From: Dictyostelium discoideum
Taxonomy: Eukaryota
Length of the DNA stretch: 64,000 nt
NCBI GenBank assembly: GCA_000004695.1
Contig: CM000152.2
Span: forward strand, 2,560,001 to 2,624,000
Reading direction: 5' to 3'
The position numbers and the translations under genes are program-made. The notes beneath the pieces were generated by a model, which worked only from the letters and a program-made list of their open reading frames with translations, did not search any database and was not told where the DNA came from. Below, in pieces: positions 881-64,000 of this stretch. The number at the start of each line of letters is the position of its first letter. Position 1 is the stretch's first letter.

Positions 881-3234
881 ATGAAAATCAAAAGTTTAAT
901 AATTTTAATAATAACAATATTATTTTTAAAAAAAATAAATTCAGCATTTGTTTATCCGAGACCTTCCGAATTAACACCAATTAAATTAAAACCAATTATT
1001 TCAATTGGTAATTTTTGTCCTTACAAAAATGTAAGTCTTTTTTTTTTTTTTTTGTTTTTTAGAAAAAAAGTTTAAAAAATAATTTAGAATTTAATATTAA
1101 CATCTAAATTAAAATAAATAAAAAAGTATGGTGTTCAATTAACAATAAATAAAATCAATTATAATTTGGTTATTGATACAGTAAATTCTGTAACAACATT
1201 ATCATCAAAAGAATGTAGATATGGATGTTTACGTTTACCTAGATTATATATTCCAAGTTCAAAAACGAAAGTTGATAAAGAAATTTCAAAAGGATATTAT
1301 AAAGATTCAACAGTATGGCAAGGTTATGTTGTTGGTGAAAAAATTATTATTAATCATAACTTAACAACAAAATCTGAAATTAAAATGATTGCATTAACAT
1401 CACAATCGAAACCACCTGCAAATCCAAGTAAGTTTTTTTTTTTTTTTTTTTTTTTTTTATTTAACATGTGATAATCTAATTTAATTAATTATTTTTTTTT
1501 AAAAAAAAAGTTTGTGAATCATCAAGTATGTTAGCACATGGTATAATTGGTGTTGGTCAATCAAAAGAAATTAATTCATTTGTTAGACAATTTTCAGGTA
1601 TGAATAATATACCACCAATATTTTCATTAACAATGTGTCCAGAGAATCCAAGAATTTGGTTTGGTGGATATGATCCAAGTGTTTTAGAAGAACCAAAAAA
1701 GTTTGCATTTACAAGATCAGAGGGTGACTCATATGGATTTACAATTAATAATGTTTATATTGGACCAAATACATTATATCAAGTTACAGATTTTGTATGG
1801 AAATCTGAATTGGATACAAGTACACCATTCATTCATTTACCATCATCAGTTTTTCATCAAGCAATTCAAGTTTTATCAAGAGAGAGACATTTTAATAAAT
1901 ATTTTAATACTCGTTTCTTTACTGAAAAGAAATGTGTACTAAATCCACTTGCAAACTTTACAATTGATCAAATTAATGGGTTATTACCAAAATTTAGAAT
2001 TGTTTTTAAATCAAATTTGCCAAACTCTGAAATCTCTTTAGATGCAGTACCATCCTATTTGGTAATTGAAGGTGATAAAGCATGCCCTGGTATAGTTGAG
2101 TCATTGGATTATAATTCAAGATTTGGTGTTTCATTATTTCAACAATATATGGTTTTATTTGATCAAGTCAATGGTTTAGTTGCGATGGGTAGAGCAAGTT
2201 GTAAACCAAATCGTTGGGTACCTGGTAGTAATTGGGGTGAATGTAAAAGAGATTTAAATTCAACTGATATTAGAGAAGGTGGTATAAATTGTGAAATGCA
2301 AACTCGTCCATTAAAATGTATAAATGGTAGAAATAAACGTGTTGCTGATTCTCTTTGTCATGGTATTTTTAAACCACTCTACAAAAGACCATGTTATAAA
2401 GAAGAAGAATCATCTGAACATCATAATGACAATTCTTCATCAAGTCATCATCCATCAATATTTGTTGATAATGACGATGATGATCAAAATGAAAATTCAC
2501 CTCCACCAGCAACTAAAAATGGTAAGAAAATAACACCAAAACCAGTTAGAACTAAAAAACCAACAACAGATTGTAAAGTTGATATTGGTACTTGGAAAGT
2601 AATGGGAAATTGGTCTGATTGTGATCAAATTTGTGGTTCAGGTTTACAAACTAGAGAGGTACTTTGTATTTCGATCAATGGTGAGTTATTAGATCAAGAA
2701 AGATGTAATTCTCATACTAAACCACCAAGTGAACGTGTTTGTGCAGTTGCAAAATGTCAAGCTGAGTATCATTGGGATACTTCAGATTGGTCAGGTTGTT
2801 CGACTCAATGTGGTGAAGGTACACAAAGTCGTTTTTCAACATGTATAGATTCATCAGTTTGGAGAAATGTTGATTCATTAAATTGTAAAGGTCCAATGCC
2901 AATTCTTGAAAGAGAATGTCTTGGTCAACCATTATGTAGTAAATTCAAATGGGATTGGGAACCTTGTCAACCAAGCTGTCCAGAAATGGCTTATGTCTAT
3001 TGTTATAACTCTTCATCAGCTACAAAAGTTGATAATTCATTTTGTAAACAAATTCCAAATCTATTCATTCCAATAGATTGTAAATGTTATAAAACAAAAA
3101 AACATTTACAAACAACTTCAACTTCTGAATTCTCTGACAGTACTTCAAATTCTTCAAAATTAATATTACCTTTAATTTCATTAAATATTATTTATTCAAT
3201 TTTAATTTTATTTATAACAATAAAATTAATTTAA
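881..3234 (+). CDS. Secreted pepsin-fold (A1 aspartic peptidase-like) protein with degenerate catalytic motifs, about 4 C-terminal thrombospondin type-1 repeats and a hydrophobic GPI-like tail. Exons 881-1030, 1127-1427, 1511-3234.
   Basis: Signal peptide MKIKSLIILIITILFLKKINSA. Exon 2 reads YGVQLTINKINYNLVIDTVNS, matching the pepsin Y.G.I.IG...F.V.FDTGSS block. Exon 3 carries GIIGVGQS and the C-terminal lobe LVAMGRASC. Several TSP1 repeats (e.g. WKVMGNWSDCDQICGSGLQTREVLC, WDTSDWSGCSTQCGEGTQSRFSTC) follow. Donors gtaagt at 1031 and 1428; acceptors ..aaaaag at 1126 and 1510; frames join without stops. Confidence 0.7.
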
Positions 3235-19421: not shown

Positions 19422-21892
19422 TCTATACAAAAGATGAATCACATGAATCATCATCATCAGAGGTTGTAACTTCACAAATAGCAACCTCAACATCTTCACC
19501 TCAAAAAGAAATAAAAGAACAAAATGATAAAGAGAAAGAAAAAGGCAAAGAGATTGAAAATGAAGATGAAAATGAAAATGAAAATAAAAATGAAAATAAA
19601 AATGAAAATAAAAATGAAAATGAGAAAGAGAAAGAAAAAGAGGAAAAAGAGTTGGGATTAAAAAAAGAAAAAGAGGAAAAAGAAAAACAAGAGAAGGAGG
19701 AGGAAAAACAAGAGACTACTACCACCACCACCACTTCAACCACTATATCATCAGATGATAAAACTGTAAATAACATATCACCAAATAAAAACAACAATAA
19801 TAATAGTAAAAAATTAAAAAGCGAAGATGGATGTGTTATCATTCAGTGTGATGATAACAATAATATTGAAACAACATCATCATCATCATCAACAAACAAT
19901 ATAGAATTACCAAAGATACCACAATTTTATTTCCCAAAAAGTAGAGCAATAAATGATAAATTAGAAACTAGTATATTTACAATTAAAAATAGATTTCAAA
20001 CTTTTAAATCAATTGATATGAATCAACAATCATGTACTAATATCCCCGCAAAATATATCTCCTCATTTGATGAATTTGAAGTTTTAATTAAAGATTTACA
20101 TTCTTTCCCAAGAATTTTAAATAGACTTTTATTCATTTACACTTTAAAACAATTAAAATTAATTGATGCAATTTATATACCTCAAGATGCATTCATAGAG
20201 TAAGTGGTTGTTTAAAAATTCAATTGAAAATATGAGAATAATAAAAAATTGTATCAAAAAAGGTGTTTTGGATTTGTGTGGGAGTGACACTTTTTTTAAT
20301 TTTTTTATTTTTTTTTACTATCCAAAACACCTTTTTTTTTTTTGGGAGTCGCACAAAAATAAAAGTAAAAAAAAAAAAGAAAAGAAGCAACAATACTAGC
20401 GTCGCATAAAAAAAAAGAGGCGACAAATACTAGCGTCGCATAAAATTACTTTTCACCACTTTAATGTTGAAATTATTACACCCGACCACCAAATTTTTTA
20501 TTTTTCACAAATAAAAAATAATTTCTAATACTTTTTTTTTTTTTTTTTTTTTTAATAATTAGGTTTTGGAAAACATATATTTATGGTAAAGATGCAGAAG
20601 ATTTACTATTTAATATTTTAAAGAAATCTGAAGATTCAAACTTTTTATTTTATGAAGATTTTTTCTTATTTTCAAAAAGTAATTATTAAATTTTTTATTA
20701 TTATTATTTTTTATAAACCAATTATTAATACTATTATTATTGTTTTAAAAATTAAAGCATTGATCGATTTTCATCCAGGTTTAGAATTTTTATCAAATAC
20801 ACCAGAGTTTCAAGATAGATATCAAGAAACAATTATTATTAGAATATTTTATGGAACTTGTAGAAATAGAGGTAGAATTACCGCAAAGGATCTAAAAACA
20901 AATAACTTTATTAGATCATTAAGTTTATTAGATGCTGAACCTGATATAAATAAGGTAAATTTTTCTTTTCAAATTTTAATTTAGAAATTAATATCATATT
21001 AATTATATATTTTTTTTTTTTTTTTTTTTTAAAAATTAATTTTAGCATTTAGAATATTTTTCATATGAACATTTTTATGTTATTTATTGTAAATTTTGGG
21101 AATTGGATATGGATCATGATCTCTTCATTGATAGTAATGATTTAGCAAAATATGGAAGTTGTAGTTTAACTCCATTAATCATTGAAAGAATTATTGCAAA
21201 TTCAATATTTACCAAACCTTTATTTGGTATTAGAAATAAAATTTCTTATCAAGATTTTGTTTGTAAGTTATTTATTTAATTATTATTATTATCATTATTA
21301 TTTTAAATTAATTAATTTTATTTTATTTTATTTTTTATTTTTATTTATTTTTTTTTACTATTTAGGGTTTATATTATCAGAAGAAGATAAAACAAGTGAA
21401 ACTAGTATTGAATTTTGGTTTAGTTGTTGTGATTTAGATTGTGATGGATTTTTAAGTTTATATGAAATGGATACATTTTATAAGGAACAAAAGCAGAGAT
21501 TAGATTATTTGAATTTAGATCCCCCAGTATTTAAGGATCTTTTATGTCAAATCTTGGATATGATTAAACCAGAGGCAATTGAAAAGATTACATTGTTGGA
21601 TTTAAAGAGTTCAAAAATGGCTGGTTATTTATTCAATGTATTATTTAATATCAATAAATTCTTACAACAAGAATCAAAAGAATCAATCACTTGTAATCAA
21701 CCAATGAGCGATTGGAATAGATTTGCTTTACAAGAATATGAAAGAGCTTTGGCCGAAGAATCACTCTCTTATCAAGACGATGAAGACGATCAAAATGATG
21801 ACCAAGATGATGACGACCAAGATGATGACGATCAAGATGGTCATCACCATAATCAATATCATCATCAAGATAATAGAATGTTAATAGGTTAA
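18911..21892 (+). CDS. Protein phosphatase 2A regulatory subunit B'' (PR72/PR130-like, EF-hand). Exons 18911-20199, 20563-20678, 20758-20964, 21046-21262, 21366-21892.
   Basis: Exons 3-5 align almost residue-for-residue with PR72: HPGLEFLSNTPEFQDRYQETIIIRIFY; YFSYEHFYVIYCKFWELDMDHDLFID; SYQDFV|WFILSEEDKTSETSIEFWFSCCDLDCDGFLSLYEMDTFYKEQ; ITLLDLK. Splice junctions restore codons exactly (e.g. T|GG=Trp). The N-terminus has long poly-N and ENK/EKE repeats. The acidic tail is DDQDDDDQ. Confidence 0.85.
20258..20345 (-). other. Conserved ~85-nt element, copy 1 (in intron 1 of the PP2A B'' gene): a 12-bp inverted repeat flanking an A-rich loop, with a DUSE-like core CTCCCACACAAATCCAAAACACCTT
   Basis: The minus strand reads AAAAAAGGTGTTTTGG..A-rich ~45 nt..GTGTCACTCCCACACAAATCCAAAACACCTTTTTT. 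Compare copy 2 at 39085-39165. Confidence 0.5.
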
Positions 21893-39084: not shown

Positions 39085-39165
39085 TAAAAAAGGGGTTTTG
39101 GTCAATAAAAAAAATAAAAAAAAAAAGAAAAAAAAATGTTCCCACAAATCCAAAACACCTTAATT
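39085..39165 (+). other. Conserved ~85-nt element, copy 2 (intergenic between IVD and the DUF1295 gene)
   Basis: The plus strand reads AAAAAAGGGGTTTTGG..A-rich ~40 nt..TGTTCCCACAAATCCAAAACACCTTAATTTTT. The TCCCACAA core equals the Dictyostelium upstream sequence element (DUSE) consensus [AT]CCCA[CT]AA. Confidence 0.5.
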
Positions 39166-49747: not shown

Positions 49748-53314
<3,567 letters not shown>

Positions 53315-53813: not shown

Positions 53814-56800
53814 ATGGGATCCCAAAAGATTTTCTTGATTTTGTTTACAATTTTATTGTGTTTGAGAACTATAAAATCTATTTCAGTTGAAGAATGTAAT
53901 TATTTTTTTTTTTAATATTTAAAAAAAAAAAGGAGTTATAAATATTAATATTATGTTTAGCAAATTGTATTAGTTTTTTAGCCAACCAACTTGGAATAAA
54001 TTTTTTTACCTCAATAAATTCTTCAAGCCAAATTCAATATTGTTATTATACATCTTATATTACATGTGACTCTAATGAGAGTATAACTGAATTAAATCTA
54101 TCTCAAAATTCATCTTCTAATATAATAGGTTCAGACCTATTTTTATGTTTTCCAAATTTAAATTCATTGTTTGTATTTATTTTTTATTTTTAATTTTATT
54201 TTTATTTTTTATTTTTATTTTTATTTTTTATTTTTATTTTTTTTTTATTTTTGCTTTTTTTTATTTTTTTTTTTTATCTTTTATCAATTTATTAATTTTG
54301 TGTTTTCAAATAGATATCTTAAAAAAGTAATACTCAATAGTGATATTTTATATACATTACCTTCAACTGTAAAGAAATTACATTTGGAAAGATGCACTGG
54401 TTTAACCAATGTAACTCAAAAATTACCGCCATATGATTATTTGTATGTATTGTTGAAAAAATAAAAAAAAAAAAAAGAAAAAGTGTTTTTTTTTACTAAT
54501 TATTTAAATATTAGAGAGATAATTACCTTTTCATCAGATACTTTCATATTTTATATGTCATGGATTCAAAATATTAAAGAGTTTTATTTTTATAATGTTG
54601 AATTTCCATATACTTTAAATACAACTTTTGTTACAGATTTTGAAAATATTGAAAATTATACCAGACTAGATTACATGGGCTTCTCAACAAATGAAATACC
54701 TGATCTTACTGGTTTTTCATGTGGTGTGTAAGTAAACAAATTATTTAATAAATAAAAATAATAATAGTTTGTTATTGATAAAAATAATAATAATAATAAA
54801 AATAAAAATATAGTGATATGCTTTTAGGTTTTGCTTTTAAAAGTTCATTTGAAAAATTATTAACATTTAGTGGTGTTAAAGATATGATGATTTGGTACTA
54901 TACAAGACCAATAGATATACCAACACAATTATTACAATTAAGTGGAATGCAAAATTTGTAAGTTGTAACTATATTTTCTAAAATTTAACAATAATAATTT
55001 AAAATTTTACTGATTCTTTTTAATGATAAAGGCAAATTAATATAAATTTTAAAGTACCATCTTATCAATATGATTTCTCAAATTTAACATCATTATCAAT
55101 GCTTCAACTTATGGATAAATCAACCAATACAAATAACTTGGGAAGAAATGGTTTACCAATTTCAAAATTACCACCAAATTTAAAAGAATTTTATTATGCA
55201 GGAATTTTAAAGAAATCACCATCAATGGAAATTTTTAAAGATGTTAAAATTGTTGATTTCTCATTATGTGAAATAAATGATACATTAAAAGATGTTTTCT
55301 TACCAACAACTTATTCAACAAATAATTTGTAACTATTTTCATTCATTAAATTATTTTTTACTTTTATTTTTTTTTAAACAGTTACTAATAGTTGTTTTTA
55401 TTTTTATATATATTATATTAATAGATATTTTGAAAACAATAAATTATATGGTTTAATTCCTCAATCATACTGTAATGTAATTACAGATTTTAGCGATAAT
55501 ACTTTAACTGGTGAAATTCCAAAGTAATTATTTTCTTTTTTATAAAAAATATTAGAATTAATTTATATATAGAAAAAAAAAAAAAAAAAAACTAACAATT
55601 TTTTAAAATAATTATAGTTGTTTCACGTGTTATTTTAATGATACTGATTCTTTAGTGAAAAATAAATTTGCAAATAATAAATTCACAAATTATGCGACCC
55701 AAGGTCCTTGTAGTATGTATTTTTAAAATATAATAATTTTTAAAATTTTAATTTTATATATATACTAACTATAATTTAATTTTTAGCAACAATGAAACCA
55801 AATTTATTAGTTAATGCTACAACTTTAATATTATATGGTGAATCTTTAGGTTTTAATGGTAGACTTATAAAAACAAATGCAACAGGTTCAACAACTTTTA
55901 CAATGATACAACCAAGTAGTTATTTTACATTAAATTTAAGAACAACAAATATATTTGCAAAAGGTGCAAGATCATTAATACTCACTTGGACAGTTGGTAG
56001 CGAAATTAGAAAATTCACATTACCAATTGTTAAACAAGCACCTGTACCTGCAAATATTACTTACAGTGGTATTGCATCGAATCAAGTCGAAATAAATGGT
56101 GAATTCTTTACATACAACATTACAGATGTTTCGGTTTTAGTAAGTGGTAATGATTGTCTTGTAACTTATACAACATTCAACCAAATCAAATGTACATTAA
56201 CAAAAGGTTTAAATGAAAGTATTGTATTACCAGTTGATTTTATTTTTGTTGACATTATTGTAGGTGGAAACAAAACAAGTGTTTATGTTAGATTACAAGA
56301 AACATCATATATAAACAATAAAAAGTGTAACCCTGAACTATGTACTTCCAATACATATTGTAATTTAAATGATGGAATTTGCTATCCACATTTAGATTGT
56401 ATTTCAGATTGTACAATAAACAATGCAGTTTGTAATCATGTTAGTGGGTTGTGTGATTGTAGGAATAATTGTAGTAATGCAGGTTTATGCAATGGTGTAG
56501 ATGGTACTTGTTCGTGTAATTCTGGTAGATTATTCAACGATTGCAGTGGTATTCAATGTACAGGTACACCAATTTGTTCAAATCATGGTACTTGTGATAC
56601 CTCAAACGGAAAATGTAAATGTGAATCAATTATATGGGTTGGCAATGCATGTCAAGATACTCAACATTATGTAAATGCAATTACACCATCAAATGAAAAT
56701 GGTGGTAAAGTTTTATTATTTGGTTGGTTTGGTTCAACTCATTCAAATGCATCAGTAATAATTGGCTCACAAGAATGTAATATAACTTCAATAAATCAAA

Positions 56801-58034
56801 CTGTAATAGAATGTGATATTGGTCATGGAAAAGGAATAGTACCAACATATGTTTCCCAAAATTCTTTGGAGTGGTCAAGTCAGACAATGTATAAATATTT
56901 ATCAATACAATTGAAATGTCCAAATGATTGTACAAGTAATTTAAATGGTAATTGTGATACAACTAAAGGTGTTTGTGTTTGTATTGGTAACTTTACAGGT
57001 ATTGATTGTGGTTCATATCCAACTAGTAATCCATCAGATGGAAGTGGAAGTGGACCAAAAACAAATACAACAGTGGATGATAATACTGGTAGTGGTTCAA
57101 TTAACAATGGTAATGTAGATTACCAAGTATCAATCACTTCACTATTAGAAATTGGATTTGATGGTAGCACAATTAAAGAATACAACCTAACTAAATTATG
57201 GGAAAAGCCAAGCAATATTAACAATCCAAACCCTAATATACATACTTTTACACAAACAATTGAAGGTAATTGTACAATCACTTCAACAATTGAAGAAGTT
57301 TCAAAAGATAAAGAATTTTCATTTGCTGGTATTGACTTTACAGTTTCAGGAGGTTCATTAAAATTATCAGTTCAAATTTTAAATTATCCATATAGTTCAA
57401 CATTAAATACATTACAACTAAGAATGAAATCATCAGCTTTAAATTATTCAACACCAAAATGTGGTAGTACTCAAGATGATGAAAAAGTTTCAATAGATTC
57501 AAATGGATTCACAAATGAAAATGATAATTTAAACTATTTAACAATCACAAAGAATAATAGAAAACTTTATGGTCGTTTCCTTTCAAAAATGTTATCAGAT
57601 GGTAGATCAACATTTACAACAAGTAACATCATTTCAACAACTGATGTCGATGTTACTGTTGCATTAAATTTACCACATTGCGATATCTGTTTATTAGATC
57701 CTGGTAAGTTTAATTTTTATAATTGATTTTTACATTTTTTTTTTTTTTTTTTTTTTCTTTTATTCCCTCAAATAACTGACTTTTTTTTTTTTTCATTTCC
57801 AAATCAGATTTTTCAATTCTTTTAAATTCAAATGTAAAAGATAATGAAGAAACATGTGAAGATGAAACTAAAGATACAAAAATATCAACCACAACAATTA
57901 TTGCGATCTGTGTATCAGTGGGGGGTGCTGCAATTATAGGTGCTGCTGGTTATCTTTTGTATAGAAAAAAAATTGTTGAAGTTTTACCATCTTCAATGTC
58001 AAATTCAAAATTAAGAAAACTAAATGCAAAATAG
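53814..58034 (+). CDS. Type I membrane receptor-like protein, paralog A: signal peptide, plant-type LRRs, IPT/TIG-like beta domains, a Cys-rich EGF-like cluster, a TM helix and a short cytoplasmic tail. Ten exons: 53814-53895, 53961-54168, 54314-54442, 54515-54727, 54814-54957, 55032-55328, 55425-55523, 55618-55712, 55787-57703, 57808-58034.
   Basis: Exon 1 MGSQKIFLILFTILLCLRTIKS. LRR text LYGLIPQSYCNVITDFSDNTLTGEIP and LPISKLPPNLKEFYY. Large exon with CNPELCTSNTYCNLNDGICYPHLDC..CSNAGLCNGVDGTCSC..CSNHGTCDTSNGKCKC. TM AICVSVGGAAIIGAAGYLLY. Every exon phase matches paralog B. Confidence 0.75.
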
Positions 58035-59585: not shown

Positions 59586-62500
59586 TTATTATTTATAGTG
59601 AAATGGTTTTAGGAAATTCTTTTCAAAGTTCATCATTAAATAATTTAACAACCTTTTCAAATGTTATTGATTTTAAGATTTGGTATTATACAAAACCTAT
59701 AGATATACCAATACAATTACTACAATTAAGTAGATTACAAAATTTGTAAGTTGTTTAGGAAAAAATAAAAAAATAAAAAAAATAATATAATTTTACTTTA
59801 CTAATAAAAAAAAAAATAATAAAAATAAAAAAAGACAAATTAATATAAATTTTAAAGTACCATCTTATCAATATGATTTCTCAAATTTAACATCATTATC
59901 AATACTTCAACTTATGGATGAATCATCAAATAATAATAACCTTGGAAGAAATGGTTTCCCAATTTCAAAATTACCACCAAACTTAAATGAATTTTATTAT
60001 GGAGGAATTTTAAAGAAATTGCCATCAATGGAAATTTTTAAAGATATTAAAATTGTTGATTTCTCATTTGGCCAAATCAATGATACATTAAAAGATGTTT
60101 TCTTACCAACAACATATGGAATTAATTATTTGTAATTATTATTTACTTATTTATTATTTATAATTTATCCTAATCATAAATTATTAATTATTATTTTTTC
60201 TTTTCTATAATATAGTTATTTTCAAAGTAATACATTATATGGTACAATACCTCAATCTTATTGTAATTTTATAACGGATTTTAGTACAAATACTTTAACT
60301 GGTGAAATTCCAAAGTAATTGTTTTTAAAAATTTAAAAAAAAAAAAAAAAAAAAAACAATATTAATATTTATTCAAACTTTTCCTTATTCTTCATTTTAT
60401 ATTTTAGTTGTTTTACCTGTTATTTTGGTGATTCTGAAATTGGTTTAAAAAATTTATTTGCAAATAATAAATTCACAAATTATGATACCCAAAACCTATG
60501 TAGTATGTTTTTTTATTAAATTAAACTTGTCTAATTTTTAACAATTATTAATTATGTATTTAATTTTTAGCGTCAATGAAACCAAATTTATTAGTTAATG
60601 CTACAACTTTAATATTATATGGTGAATCTTTAGGTTTTAATGGTAAACTTATAAAAACAAATGCAACAGGTTCGACAACTTTTACAATGATTCAACCAAG
60701 TAGTTATTTTACATTAAATTTAAGAACAACAAATATATTTGCAAAAGGTGCAAGATCATTAATACTCACTTGGACAGTTGGTAGCGAAATTAGAAAATTC
60801 ACATTACCAATTGTTAAACAAGCACCTGTACCTGCAAATATTACTTACAGTGGTATTGCATCAAATCAAGTTGAAATAAATGGTGAATTCTTTACATATA
60901 ATATTCAAGATGTTTTAGTTTTAGTTAGTGGTATTGATTGTCTTGTCACTTCAACAACATTCAACCAAATCAAATGTAAATTAACAAAAGGTTTAAATGA
61001 AAGTATTGTATTACCAGTTGATTTTATTTTTGTTGACATTATTGCAGGTGGAAACAAAACAAGTGTTTATGTTAGATTACAAGAAACATCATATATAAAC
61101 AATAAAAAGTGTAACCCTGAACTATGTACTTCCAATACATATTGTAATTTAAATGATGGAATTTGTTATCCATATTTAGATTGCTTTTCAGATTGTACAA
61201 TAAACAATGCATTTTGTAATCATGGTAATGGTTTGTGTGATTGTAGAAATAATTGTAGTAATGCAGGTTTATGCAATGGTGTAGATGGTACTTGTTCGTG
61301 TAATCCCGATAGATTATTCAACGATTGCAGTGGTATTCAATGTCCAGGTACACCAATTTGTTCAAATCATGGTACTTGTGATACCTCAAATGGAAAATGT
61401 AAATGTGAATCAATTAAATGGGTTGGCAATGCATGTCAAGATACTCAACATTATGTAAATGCAATTACACCATCAAATGAAAATGGTGGTAAAGTTTTAT
61501 TATTTGGTTGGTTTGGTTCAACTCATTCAAATGCATCAGTAATAATTGGCTCACAAGAATGTAATATAACTTCAATAAATCAAACTGTAATAGAATGTGA
61601 TATTGGTCATGGAAAAGGAATAGTACCATCATATGTATATCAAAATTCTTTGGAATGGTCAAGTCAGACAATGTATAAATATTTATCAACACAATTAAAA
61701 TGTCCAAATGATTGTACAAGTAATTTAAATGGTAATTGTGATACAACAAAAGGAGTTTGTGTTTGTATTGGTAACTTTACAGGTATTGATTGTGGTTCAT
61801 ATCCAACTAGTAATCCATCAGATGGAAGTGGAAGTGGACCAAAAACAAATACAACAGTGGATGATAATACTGGTAGTGGTTCAATTAACAATGGTAATGT
61901 AGATTACCAAGTATCAATCACTTCACTATTAGAAATTGGATTTGATGGTAGCACAATTAAAGAATACAACCTAACTAAATTATGGGAAAAGCCAAGCAAT
62001 ATTAACAATCCAAACCCTAATATTCATACTTTTACACAAACAATTGAAGGTAATTGTACAATCACTTCAACAATTGAAGAAGTTTCAAAAGATAAAAAAT
62101 TTTCATTTGCTGGTATTGATTTTACAGTTTCAGGAGGTTCATTAAAATTATCAGTTCAAATTTTAAATTATCCATATAGTTCAACATTAAATACATTACA
62201 ACTAAGAATGAAATCATCAGCTTTAAATTATTCAACACCAAAATGTGGTAGTACTCAAGATGATGAAAAAGTTTCAATAGATTCAAATGGATTCACAAAT
62301 GAAAATGATAATTTAAACTATTTAACAATCACAAAGAATAATAGAAAACTTTATGGTCGTTTCCTTTCAAAAATGTTATCAGATGGTAGATCAACATTTA
62401 CAACAAGTAACATCATTTCGACAACTGATGTCGATGTTACTGTTGCATTAAATTTACCACATTGCGATATCTGTTTATTAGATCCTGGTAAGTTTAATTT

Positions 62501-62792
62501 TAATAATTGATTTTTATTCCCTCAAATAACTGACTTTTTTTTTTTATTTTTCATTTCCAAATCAGATTTTTCAATTCTTTTAAATTCAAATGTAAAAGAT
62601 AATGAAGAAACATGTGAAGATGAAACTAAAGATACAAAAATATCAACCACAACAATTATTGCGATCTGTGTATCAGTGGGGGGTGCTGCAATTATAGGTG
62701 CTGCTGGTTATCTTTTGTATAGAAAAAAGTTTGTTGAAGTTTTACCATCCTCAAAGTCAAATTCAAAATTAAAAAAACTAAATGTGAAATAA
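58545..62792 (+). CDS. Type I membrane receptor-like protein, paralog B (tandem duplicate of 53814-58034). Ten exons: 58545-58626, 58696-58909, 58981-59109, 59219-59437, 59599-59745, 59835-60131, 60216-60314, 60408-60502, 60571-62487, 62566-62792.
   Basis: Same architecture and exon phases as paralog A. Exon 1 MKFSKIFSIFILILLCIGTLKS. Exons 6-10 are ~96-97% identical to paralog A, while exons 1-5 are only ~50-60% identical. Intron 4 is an (ATT)n repeat. Confidence 0.75.
59467..59590. repeat. (ATT)n microsatellite forming intron 4 of receptor paralog B
   Basis: tta x ~40 between donor GT at 59438 and the acceptor at 59598. The raw ORF reads poly-L. Confidence 0.8.
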
Positions 62793-63084
62793 GATTAAAA
62801 TAAAATATTATAATAAATTTAAAGACTATTACAAAAAAAGATTTACTTTTTTAACATCTCTTTTATATATCAAGGTCAGATAGGCTCATATAAGAGTGCT
62901 AAGATTTAACTAAGATTTAAAATACTTTGTTTTTCTTGTTAAGTTTTTGAATTTTTCAGAAGGGATAAGGTTAGATTGATTGTTTTTTTTTTATTTTTTG
63001 TTTAGAGGCAATCCACTTTATATTTTTGTTTGGTTAATCTTTTTAAAATGAAAAGAGCAATATTTGGTGAAAAATATCACAAAT

Positions 63085-63130
63085 CGCCGCGATAGTATAG
63101 TGGTATTACTTCAGATTGGGAACCTTTGAC
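63085..63130 (+). pseudogene. Truncated tRNA-His-like copy (5' half only), inverted relative to the intact gene
   Basis: GCCGCGATAGTATAGTGGTATTACTTCAGATTGGGAACC matches the 5' acceptor/D-arm of tRNA-His (2 mismatches). It then diverges with no T-arm or B box. Together with ~17 nt of 5' flank (aaaaatatcacaaat) it mirrors the real gene. Confidence 0.5.
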
Positions 63131-63228
63131 CATAATTAAGAATTCTTTTATAGATCAAAAAAAAAATTTAGATTTAACATGCAAAGCAATATTATTATAA
63201 CTTTTTTAATTCAGGTGTGTACCCGTGA

Positions 63229-63250
63229 GATAGGGAATTGAACCTTTGAT
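63229..63250 (-). promoter_or_regulatory. Extra B box (ex-B box) downstream of tRNA-His
   Basis: The minus strand reads ..CAAAGGTTCAATTCCCTATC.. about 30 nt 3' of the tRNA. This matches the B-box consensus GGTTCRANTCC, as is typical of Dictyostelium tRNA loci. Confidence 0.5.
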
Positions 63251-63273
63251 CAAGAGGTCAAATTTTTAAAAAG

Positions 63274-63344
63274 TGCCGCGACCTGGAATCGAACCAGGGT
63301 CAACAGAGCCACAATCTGATGTACTACCACTATACTATCACGGC
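63274..63344 (-). tRNA. tRNA-His (anticodon GUG)
   Basis: The minus strand reads GCCGTGATAGTATAGTGGTAGTACATCAGATTGTGGCTCTGTTGACCCTGGTTCGATTCCAGGTCGCGGCA, with anticodon loop TTGTGGC, B box GGTTCGATTCC and A box TAGTATAGTGG. It is close to the canonical eukaryotic tRNA-His sequence. Confidence 0.85.
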
Positions 63345-63703
63345 AATTTGTGATATTTTTCATTTTAAATTGCTCTTCCCCATTTTCTTAATTAAAAAGA
63401 TTAAACGGCCATGGTGTGTCGGTTTGTAAATATTTAAAAAGATCAGATTTTAATTTCATCAAATTTATTATAATAAATGAGATTTATCTCAAGAAGCTAA
63501 TAATTGCATTATTCCTTTCAAAAGAAAATCGGGTTTTAATTTTTAAAATTGTTTAAAGTGAAAAAAACATCTTAATAATCTGAAAGGTGAAAGAAATAAA
63601 AGGAATTTAAAAAATAAAAGTTATTAAAGTTATGGTTATTTGTTGGAAAAAAAAATGAAAAAACTTAATCGCAAATATTTTATTATATATTAATTTAATA
63701 TCT

Positions 63704-64000
63704 TAAGTAAGCAGCGCCTGAGCTTGAGCCTGAACCTGAACCTGAACCTGAACCGGTACCAGTCATTTGACCAGTAACGGATGGACCGCTGGTGACGGTG
63801 AAGTTAGCGTAGACAGAGTTAAAGGTGACACTGTGTTTGGCACCACAACTACCTTCACAGATCATTAATTGAACTTGGTAAACACCAGCTGGGAATTGTT
63901 CATCTTCAGATGGGGTGGCGGCGAATGAAAAACTAGTTGAGTATTGACCTGGTTGAGTGTTGACAATTAATTGAGCATCACCAAAACCATTTGAACCAGT
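63704..64000 (-). CDS. 3' end of a gene continuing beyond the window. It encodes ..QFPAGVYQVQLMICEGSCGAKHSVTFNSVYANFTVTSGPSVTGQMTGTGSGSGSGSGSSSGAAYLRY*.
   Basis: The frame is open from the window edge to TAA at 63704-63706. Codon usage is conspicuously GC3-rich (ggt, acc, gtc, ggc) against the AT background, typical of highly expressed Dictyostelium genes. Contains a (GS)n linker. Confidence 0.5.

What the first reader, a model, noticed from the sequence alone, without database searches (positions are those of the whole stretch)
63040..63385. tRNA-His embedded in a ~75-nt inverted duplication of its own 5' half plus 5' flank
Plus-strand 63040-63110 (aaaatgaaaagagcaatatttggtgaaaaatatcacaaatcGCCGCGATAGTATAGTGGTATTAC) is the near-exact reverse complement of 63321-63385. 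That span is the 5' half of the intact minus-strand tRNA-His plus ~45 nt of its upstream flank. The two arms face each other across a ~200-bp centre that contains the ex-B box. The partial copy has a mutated anticodon region and no T-arm, so it is not a functional tRNA. Such a palindrome could form a cruciform. It may be a scar of tRNA-targeted retroelement integration or recombination, or a template-switch duplication.
Basis: seen in the sequence. Interest (0 to 1): 0.6.

Follow-up and report, generated by a model that had tools for sequence, protein, structure and literature searches.

The report
Dead inverted half-copy beside tRNA-His gene

Summary
Plus-strand 63034-63131 is the imperfect reverse complement of 63298-63404. 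The ungapped core is 66 nt at 86%; the whole match is about 80% with two indels. The local alignment scores 95 against 19.9±2.7 for shuffles.

The right arm is the 5' flank plus nt 1-47 of an intact minus-strand tRNA-His(GTG), 63273-63344 (65 bits). That gene has an A box, a B box, a T5 terminator and an external B box.

The left arm keeps the A box. It has a 1-nt deletion in the anticodon, no T-arm or B box and no cloverleaf. Neither ARAGORN nor Rfam calls it.

Homology stops sharply at both arm ends. The centre and the outer flanks show none.

The window is D. discoideum AX4-type sequence.

Because at least 52 nt of untranscribed upstream DNA was copied, the event was at the DNA level, not retroposition. 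I found no retroelement sequence, no target-site duplication and no adjacent poly(A).

A cruciform is unlikely, given a 166-nt spacer and imperfect arms. A T10 run blocks Pol III read-through into the left arm.

Best reading: a dead gene relic from a local inverted duplication. This could be a template switch or snap-back copy, or a whole-unit duplication trimmed by a central deletion. I could not separate these routes because no orthologous locus could be retrieved. Interest is low.

The parts
63273..63344 (-). Intact tRNA-His(GTG) gene. The base at -1 is T, so G-1 is not encoded. The discriminator is A (63274).
   Evidence: ARAGORN. Rfam RF00005: 65 bits, E = 9e-14, full-length match. The MFE fold has acceptor and T stems.
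63327..63337 (-). A box of the intact gene (TAGTATAGTGG, tRNA nt 8-18)
   Evidence: Read from the sequence. Matches the conserved D-arm region in the Rfam alignment.
63285..63295 (-). Internal B box of the intact gene (GGTTCGATTCC)
   Evidence: Pattern GTTCRANYC matches at 63286-63294 on the minus strand. Consensus taken from PMC3159450.
63268..63272 (-). T5 Pol III terminator directly after the tRNA
   Evidence: Read from the sequence.
63234..63244 (-). External B box (GGTTCAATTCC); its conserved core GTTCAATTC (63243-63235) begins 30 nt past the tRNA 3' end
   Evidence: GTTCRANYC matches at 63235-63243 on the minus strand. External B boxes occur ~41 bp downstream of 66% of D. discoideum tRNA genes (PMC3159450).
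63298..63404 (-). Right arm of the inverted repeat: 60 nt of 5' flank plus tRNA nt 1-47 of the intact gene
   Evidence: Gapped local alignment and blastn.
63034..63085 (+). Left arm, outer part: copy of the tRNA-His 5' flank (52 nt). Contains the 8-nt indel and the mismatch cluster at 63062-63067.
63086..63131 (+). Left arm, inner part: truncated tRNA-His relic equivalent to nt 1-47. The A box at 63093-63103 is intact. The anticodon GTG has become G-G through a 1-nt deletion. There is no T-arm, B box or acceptor 3' strand.
   Evidence: Not called by ARAGORN at default, 95, 80 or 60% thresholds or by Rfam at E <= 10. RNA fold z = +0.55, no cloverleaf. The next 29 nt match the tRNA 3' third at 6/29, which is chance level.
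63132..63297 (.). Spacer between the arms (166 nt). It holds 93 nt of unique AT-rich DNA, then the ex-B box, terminator and 3' third of the intact gene. It also contains T4 on the + strand (63146-63149) and A10 on the + strand, which is T10 on the minus strand (63157-63166).
   Evidence: Sequence. No significant internal inverted symmetry or homology to the outer flanks.

Best explanation
The left element (63034-63131) is a dead, truncated duplicate, or gene relic, of the neighbouring tRNA-His gene.

A stretch of about 105 bp was copied as DNA, in inverted orientation, to a point 166 bp away on the 3' side of the gene. That stretch ran from ~60 bp upstream of the gene to tRNA position ~47.

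The route I favour is a single replication or repair event. A 3' end arose downstream of the gene, at a stalled fork or a break. It switched to, or snapped back on, the complementary strand inside the tRNA gene, copied ~105 nt outward through the 5' flank, and was then re-joined.

The product never had a B box, so TFIIIC cannot bind it and Pol III cannot transcribe it. It has since drifted.

The intact gene works as an ordinary D. discoideum Pol III unit: A box, B box, T5 terminator and external B box. The repeat contributes nothing to it.

- Shown: the homology and its sharp limits, the loss of all 3' elements, the absence of a cloverleaf, and the absence of retroelement hallmarks.
- Inferred: the DNA-level origin, the one-step route, and the lack of function.
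For: - The repeat is real and significant.
- It includes 52-60 nt of upstream flank, far more than a Pol III pre-tRNA leader. The template was therefore DNA, not tRNA or pre-tRNA (established knowledge of Pol III start sites).
- Homology ends abruptly. The left copy's next 29 nt match the tRNA 3' third at 6/29. The centre and outer flanks show nothing above shuffles. There is no trace of a second T-arm, terminator or ex-B box.
- The only B-box matches at the locus (GTTCRANYC) are the two on the minus strand that belong to the intact gene.
- The left copy is not a tRNA by ARAGORN, by Rfam or by folding.
- The differences between the arms are clustered: 63062-63067, the 8-nt indel, and 63119-63125. 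Outside these clusters identity is about 94%. This fits low-fidelity templated synthesis better than uniform decay.
- The arms differ by 14-20%, which excludes an assembly or cloning artefact.
Against: - No orthologous or paralogous tRNA-His locus could be retrieved, so the ancestral state is unknown.
- The one-step route cannot be told apart from whole-unit duplication followed by deletion.
- Junction microhomology cannot be assessed at this level of divergence.
- Clustered differences could equally be later complex mutations.
- Non-function is inferred from missing promoter elements. No expression data were examined.
Confidence: 0.45

Rival explanations
1. Two-step origin. A complete tRNA-His unit (flank, gene, terminator, ex-B box) was first duplicated in inverted orientation, giving a convergent gene pair or near-palindrome. 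An asymmetric central deletion then removed the left gene's 3' third and its downstream region, leaving the present relic.
For: - D. discoideum has many tRNA gene pairs with identical anticodons (PMC8163159).
- Long palindromes are known to be unstable and to be trimmed by central deletions (established knowledge).
- The arm geometry and the dead state of the left copy fit this route equally well.
Against: - There is no residual homology for the T-arm, terminator or ex-B box on the left, and no symmetry in the spacer.
- It needs two events where one suffices.
- As I recall the genome paper, which I could not read here, known pairs are mostly separated by kilobases rather than ~200 bp.
Confidence: 0.35
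2. Scar or by-product of a tRNA-targeted retroelement (TRE5, TRE3 or DGLT-A). Possible forms are a transduced flank-plus-tRNA fragment or a remnant left after the element was lost.
For: - 61% of D. discoideum tRNA genes are associated with a TRE element (PMC5391098).
- The arm ends at -52/-60 are not far from the TRE5-A site at -47 ± 3.
- The left arm lies ~100 bp beyond the ex-B box, roughly where TRE3 elements insert (~100 bp downstream of tRNA genes, PMC5391098).
Against: - No retroelement coding sequence is present. The intergenic region has no ORF longer than 46 aa, and the neighbouring ORFs tested have no RT, APE or IN domains.
- There is no significant flanking direct repeat and no poly(A) abutting an arm.
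- TRE5-A's fixed orientation would place a transduced copy upstream of a gene and in direct orientation, not downstream and convergent (PMC5391098).
- An inverted repeat of ~100 nt is not a product of target-primed reverse transcription.
Confidence: 0.05
3. The inverted repeat is functional. It might be a hairpin RNA source of small RNAs against tRNA-His, a cruciform or structural element, or a Pol III-related boundary or regulatory element.
For: - The region folds into a long hairpin as single-stranded nucleic acid (-74 kcal/mol, z = -9.7).
- Tail-to-tail tDNA pairs have been proposed as a possible evolutionary source of small RNAs (PMC2888827).
- There is a 17-nt perfectly conserved block just upstream of both copies.
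Against: - Pol III read-through from the intact gene meets T5 and then T10 (63157-63166, minus strand) before it reaches the left arm.
- The left copy has no B box.
- The locus lies between the 3' ends of two convergent protein-coding genes, so no Pol II promoter is expected.
- The arms are imperfect and the spacer is 166 nt, which disfavours cruciform extrusion.
- A 17-nt identical run is unremarkable in an alignment of this identity.
Confidence: 0.03
4. The left element is a relic of an independent, dispersed tRNA-His family member that happens to lie next to another one. On this view all tRNA-His genes share this flank, and there was no local duplication.
For: tRNA gene families in D. discoideum arose by recent duplications, so flanks may be shared across loci (PMC8163159, as context only).
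Against: - A distance of 166 bp between two members of a small family in a ~34-Mb genome is very unlikely without a local event.
- No other copy of the arm or flank occurs in the 64-kb window.
Confidence: 0.1

Closest known systems
tRNA pseudogenes and truncated tDNA relics in eukaryotic genomes (survey: PMC2888827)
   Same: It is a decayed, non-transcribable fragment homologous to a tRNA gene and lying near an intact tDNA. It is one step in the duplication and degradation turnover described for eukaryotic tDNAs.
   Different: It is too truncated to be called even as a pseudogene by covariance or heuristic tRNA finders. tRNAscan-SE reports only three pseudogenes in AX4, none of them His (PMC13063481). 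It also carries 52 nt of upstream flank and is inverted relative to its source, 166 bp away.
D. discoideum tRNA gene pairs and triplets with identical anticodons (genome paper, cited in PMC8163159)
   Same: Same organism and same kind of event: local duplication of a tRNA gene with flanking DNA.
   Different: Here only one member is intact. The copy lacks the 3' third and the ex-B box, and the spacing is ~200 bp.
Short inverted templated insertions, quasi-palindromes produced by replication template switching or snap-back repair synthesis (established mechanism class)
   Same: The copy is inverted, ~100 nt long, and taken from a template a few hundred bp away. It has sharp ends and clustered sequence differences.
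   Different: The mechanism is inferred only. The junctions are too diverged to show microhomology, and no pre-insertion allele is available.
TRE5-A, TRE3 and DGLT-A tRNA-gene-targeted retrotransposon insertions (PMC5391098, PMC5006619)
   Same: They occur in the immediate neighbourhood of a D. discoideum tRNA gene. The arm end at about -52 to -60 and the position ~100 bp beyond the ex-B box fall near their preferred windows.
   Different: There is no element sequence, no target-site duplication and no poly(A). The orientation and geometry are wrong.

Membership tests
Functional eukaryotic tRNA gene (Pol III type 2 promoter): left copy 63086-63160 | Cloverleaf recognised by tRNA finders or a covariance model | tested here: not met
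   ARAGORN finds nothing at default, 95, 80 or 60% thresholds. There is no RF00005 hit at E <= 10. The RNA fold has z = +0.55 and no cloverleaf.
Functional eukaryotic tRNA gene (Pol III type 2 promoter): left copy 63086-63160 | A box | tested here: met
   TAGTATAGTGG at 63093-63103 is identical to that of the intact gene.
Functional eukaryotic tRNA gene (Pol III type 2 promoter): left copy 63086-63160 | B box (GTTCRANYC), internal or external, in the same orientation | tested here: not met
   The only matches at the locus are 63286-63294 and 63235-63243, both on the minus strand.
Functional eukaryotic tRNA gene: right copy 63273-63344 | Cloverleaf, A box, B box and T-run terminator | tested here: met
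D. discoideum tRNA gene with external B box | B-box-like GTTCRANYC a few tens of bp downstream of the gene, in the same orientation | tested here: met
   GTTCAATTC at 63243-63235 on the minus strand, 30 nt past the tRNA end. The reported typical distance is ~41 bp (PMC3159450).
Truncated tDNA relic or partial duplicate | Significant homology to a tRNA gene that is limited to part of the gene, with essential elements missing | tested here: met
   Alignment score 95 against 19.9 ± 2.7 for shuffles. Homology ends at tRNA nt ~47, and the 3' third matches 6/29.
Retroposed tRNA copy or retroelement scar (TRE5, TRE3, DGLT-A) | Adjacent retroelement sequence (ORF1, APE-RT, LTR or UTR modules) | tested here: inconclusive
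   No ORF longer than 46 aa lies in 62791-63702, and there are no RT, APE or IN Pfam hits in the neighbouring ORFs tested. Non-coding TRE modules and LTRs could not be checked because no reference sequences were available. DNA beyond 64000 was not visible.
Retroposed tRNA copy or retroelement scar (TRE5, TRE3, DGLT-A) | Target-site duplication flanking the inserted segment, and a poly(A) tail | tested here: not met
   No direct repeat stands clearly above shuffles around the arms; the best is reached by 33 of 500 shuffles. No A-run abuts an arm end.
Retroposed tRNA copy or retroelement scar (TRE5, TRE3, DGLT-A) | Copied segment limited to transcribed sequence | tested here: not met
   The arms include 52-60 nt upstream of tRNA nt 1.
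Cruciform-forming palindrome | Near-perfect arms with a very short spacer | tested here: not met
   The arms are 80-86% identical with an 8-nt indel. The spacer is 166 nt, or 193 nt between the ungapped cores.
D. discoideum tRNA gene pair with identical anticodons | Two intact genes of the same anticodon close together | tested here: not met
   There is only one tRNA in the whole 64-kb window.

The most novel reading that the evidence does not exclude
The relic may be a preserved intermediate of the process that generated D. discoideum's unusual same-anticodon tRNA gene pairs: template switching at replication forks stalled by the Pol III complex, with the breakpoint inside the gene between the A and B boxes. 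A related possibility is that the intact ~190-bp unit (5' flank, tRNA, ex-B box) is itself a dispersed, mobilisable module. That unit is bracketed by two same-orientation GGTGTGT heptamers at 63214-63220 and 63413-63419.
Probability: 0.1. Interest if true: 0.45.

Novelty: new member of a known kind. Interest (0 to 1): 0.15.

Why it matters
It matters very little on its own. It is one more example of tRNA-gene duplication and decay, in a genome already known for duplicated tRNA genes.

Its modest value has two sides:
- It is invisible to standard tRNA annotation, because it is too truncated for tRNAscan, ARAGORN or Rfam.
- One breakpoint lies inside the Pol III-bound part of the gene and the copy includes untranscribed flank. 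If similar relics recur genome-wide, they would point to a DNA-level, replication-associated mechanism for tRNA gene duplication in Dictyostelium.

Tried and rejected
Comparative genomics: tried in several ways, all dead ends.
- All three homologous-protein searches failed to give usable neighbours. The ComC-like neighbour gave only paralogues at 30-34% identity. The right-hand C-terminal ORF gave none. The 1188-aa ORF gave none; 8000 candidates shared words with it, which I suspect were mostly low-complexity matches.
- Exact look-ups of window ORFs, including small ORFs that overlap the locus, were not on record.
- The five ComC-paralogue loci from D. cf. discoideum, D. firmibasis and D. purpureum (L001, L002, L076-L078) carry no tRNA. 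For L001 and L002, tblastx against the window matched only the ComC-like genes, so they are not syntenic; L076-L078 were only scanned for tRNAs.
- Exact-pattern scans of metagenome and prokaryote genome collections with the shared arm sequence gave nothing. A shorter 19-mer gave only unrelated prokaryotic tRNAs.

Ideas tested within the window and rejected.
- The left copy's GGGAACCTTTGACCA might be a patch copied from the ex-B region (GGGAATTGAACCTTTGATCA). The local score of 21 is reached by 369 of 1000 shuffles, so it is not significant.
- The T-arm might survive in heavily decayed form. It matches 6/29, which is chance.
- A 23-nt direct repeat (62851-62873 and 63136-63158) might be a target-site duplication. 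It is reached by 33 of 500 shuffles in AT-rich sequence and does not bracket the arm.
- The spacer might be a decayed continuation of the palindrome. There is no significant symmetry beyond A/T runs.
- Assembly artefact. Rejected because the arms are 14-20% diverged.

Full report
**Source and context**

The window is AT-rich, 15-29% GC. The ORF at 1528-3231 is 100% identical to residues 157-724 of D. discoideum AX4 rsc22 (XP_641492.1) and 96-99% identical to other D. discoideum and D. cf. discoideum isolates. The sequence is therefore D. discoideum of AX4 type.

The finding lies in a 912-nt intergenic region (62791-63702) between the 3' ends of two convergent protein-coding genes:
- a ComC-like EGF/TIG gene ending at about 62790 on the + strand;
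- an ORF on the minus strand whose stop lies at about 63700.

**Checking the observation**

ARAGORN finds exactly one tRNA in 64 kb: tRNA-His(GTG) at 63273-63344 on the minus strand. Rfam agrees with a full-length RF00005 match of 65 bits.

The repeat finder reports inverted arms 63053-63118 and 63312-63377, 66 nt and 86% complementary. Gapped alignment extends the repeat to 63034-63131 against 63404-63298. It includes an 8-nt indel block and a 1-nt gap in the anticodon. blastn gives 79.6% over 93 columns, E = 5e-17.

The local score of 95 compares with 19.9 ± 2.7 (maximum 34) for 500 shuffles. With low-complexity filtering, this is the only local inverted repeat in the window that is not nearly pure A/T. 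No third copy of the arm or of its flank motif occurs in the window.

- The arms are longer than stated: 98 and 107 nt.
- They include 52 and 60 nt of upstream flank and tRNA nt 1 to ~47.
- They are not 'near-exact'. The inner flank is 82% identical, nt 1-33 is 91% and nt 35-47 is 69%. The differences cluster at 63062-63067, at the indel and at 63119-63125.

**Anatomy of the intact gene**

The intact gene is a textbook D. discoideum Pol III unit:
- A box TAGTATAGTGG at 63337-63327;
- B box GGTTCGATTCC at 63295-63285;
- discriminator A, then C, then T5 at 63272-63268;
- external B box GGTTCAATTCC at 63244-63234.

External B boxes are reported ~41 bp downstream of 66% of D. discoideum tRNA genes (PMC3159450).

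**Anatomy of the left copy**

- It keeps the A box (63093-63103).
- Its anticodon is G-G instead of GTG.
- After TTGACC (63126-63131) all homology ends. The next 29 nt match the tRNA 3' third at 6/29, which is the chance level for this base composition.
- No B-box match in the + orientation occurs anywhere near it.
- ARAGORN does not call it even at 60% thresholds.
- Rfam gives nothing at E <= 10.
- As RNA it does not fold better than shuffles (z = +0.55).

It is not a gene and not even a callable pseudogene. It is a truncated relic.

**Limits of the repeat**

Alignments were run in both orientations among three segments: the outer-left segment (62791-63033), the spacer (63132-63297) and the outer-right segment (63405-63702). 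None gave anything clearly above shuffles. The duplication is therefore confined to the arms. There is no trace of a second T-arm, terminator or ex-B box.

**Mechanism**

The copy contains at least 52 nt of DNA upstream of tRNA nt 1. Pol III pre-tRNA leaders are only about 5-15 nt (my recollection of established work, not checked here). The template must therefore have been DNA. This excludes retroposition of a tRNA, a tRNA half or a pre-tRNA.

Retroelement involvement has no support:
- No ORF longer than 46 aa lies in the intergenic region.
- The neighbouring ORFs tested have no retroelement domains.
- There is no target-site duplication and no abutting poly(A).
- TRE5-A inserts ~47 bp upstream with its 5' end facing the tRNA 5' end (PMC5391098). 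A co-mobilised fragment would then lie upstream of a target gene and in direct orientation, not convergent and downstream.

An assembly artefact is excluded by the 14-20% divergence between the arms.

What remains is a local, DNA-level inverted duplication. Two routes fit the data.
- (a) One step. A 3' end arising ~140 bp downstream of the gene switches strands or snaps back. It primes inside the tRNA gene at about nt 47, copies ~105 nt outward, and is re-joined.
- (b) Two steps. The whole unit is duplicated in inverted orientation, and an asymmetric central deletion follows.

I favour (a) slightly, at 0.45 against 0.35, for three reasons:
- Nothing of the missing 3' part survives.
- One event suffices.
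- The clustered differences resemble low-fidelity templated synthesis.

tRNA genes as replication-fork pause sites (cited in PMC5391098) give a rationale for a breakpoint inside the gene. None of this is decisive.

**Function**

I infer that there is none.
- The left copy lacks the B box needed for TFIIIC (PMC3159450, PMC13063481).
- Pol III reading through the intact gene's T5 would meet T10 (63157-63166, minus strand) before reaching the left arm. A tRNA/anti-tRNA hairpin transcript is therefore not expected.
- No Pol II promoter is expected between two convergent 3' ends.
- As single-stranded DNA the region folds into a long hairpin (-74.2 kcal/mol, z = -9.7). A 166-nt spacer and imperfect arms nevertheless make cruciform extrusion from duplex DNA unlikely (established knowledge).

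**Comparison with known cases**

The closest known category is the tDNA relic or pseudogene of eukaryotic tRNA-gene turnover (PMC2888827), in an organism already noted for same-anticodon tRNA gene pairs (PMC8163159). tRNAscan-SE reports only three pseudogenes in AX4: Ser, Leu and one undetermined (PMC13063481). This relic is probably unannotated, but it is not a new kind of object.

**What could not be done**

No orthologous locus, other Dictyostelium tRNA-His locus or retroelement reference sequence could be obtained with the tools. DNA beyond position 64000 was not visible. The ancestral state and the exact route therefore remain open.

**Verdict**

The retroelement-scar and cruciform ideas are not supported. 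The feature is an ordinary gene relic: a new member of a known kind, of low interest (0.15).

Noticed in passing
window 55792-58033 and 60576-62791: Tandem duplication (period 4784 bp) of a ComC-like gene. Each copy is a 644-aa ORF plus a short 3' exon. The Pfam hits (ComC_SSD, ComC beta-sandwich, TIG, EGF) were obtained on the second copy only. The last 280 nt are 96% identical between the copies. The duplication ends at the stop codon, ~240 bp before the left arm, so it does not include the tRNA locus. No near-identical protein exists in the 5.8-billion-protein database; the best hits are 30-34% paralogues.
   Followed up: partly
window 63214-63220 and 63413-63419 (+): Two same-orientation GGTGTGT heptamers, 199 nt apart, bracket the whole intact unit (ex-B box, tRNA-His, 60-nt flank). 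There are only 8 occurrences on both strands of the window, against 1.9 expected. This could be a target-site-duplication-like footprint, a G-box/CAE-type motif, or a post-hoc coincidence.
   Followed up: partly
window 63116-63133 vs 63229-63252 (+): The mutated anticodon region of the left copy (ATTGGGAACCTTTGACCA) resembles the plus-strand reading of the ex-B region (ATAGGGAATTGAACCTTTGATCA). By eye the match is 14/15 with a 5-nt gap. The local alignment score is reached by 369 of 1000 shuffles, so I treat it as chance.
   Followed up: yes
window 63703-64000 (-), running off the window end: The C-terminal ~100 aa of a coding-looking ORF (…MICEGSCGAKHSVTFNSVYANFTVTSGPSVTGQMTGTGSGSGSGSGSSSGAAYLRY*) has no Pfam hit and no homologue at E <= 1e-5 in the protein database.
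   Followed up: partly
window 49748-53314 (+): An 1188-aa ORF rich in poly-N and poly-S tracts has no Pfam domain. The homologue search returned nothing at E <= 1e-50; 8000 candidates shared short words with the query, which I suspect were dominated by low-complexity matches.
   Followed up: no
window 39086-39161 vs 20260-20337: An inverted match (81 columns, 80%, GC 0.24) that is not extremely AT-rich, between two sites 18.8 kb apart. Not examined.
   Followed up: no
window 63053-63131 vs 63298-63377: The differences between the arms are clustered rather than evenly spread: 5 of 6 positions at 63062-63067, an 8-nt indel block at 63047-63052, and 4 of 7 positions plus a 1-nt deletion at 63119-63125. 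The rest is about 94% identical. This suggests a few complex mutational events or low-fidelity copying.
   Followed up: partly
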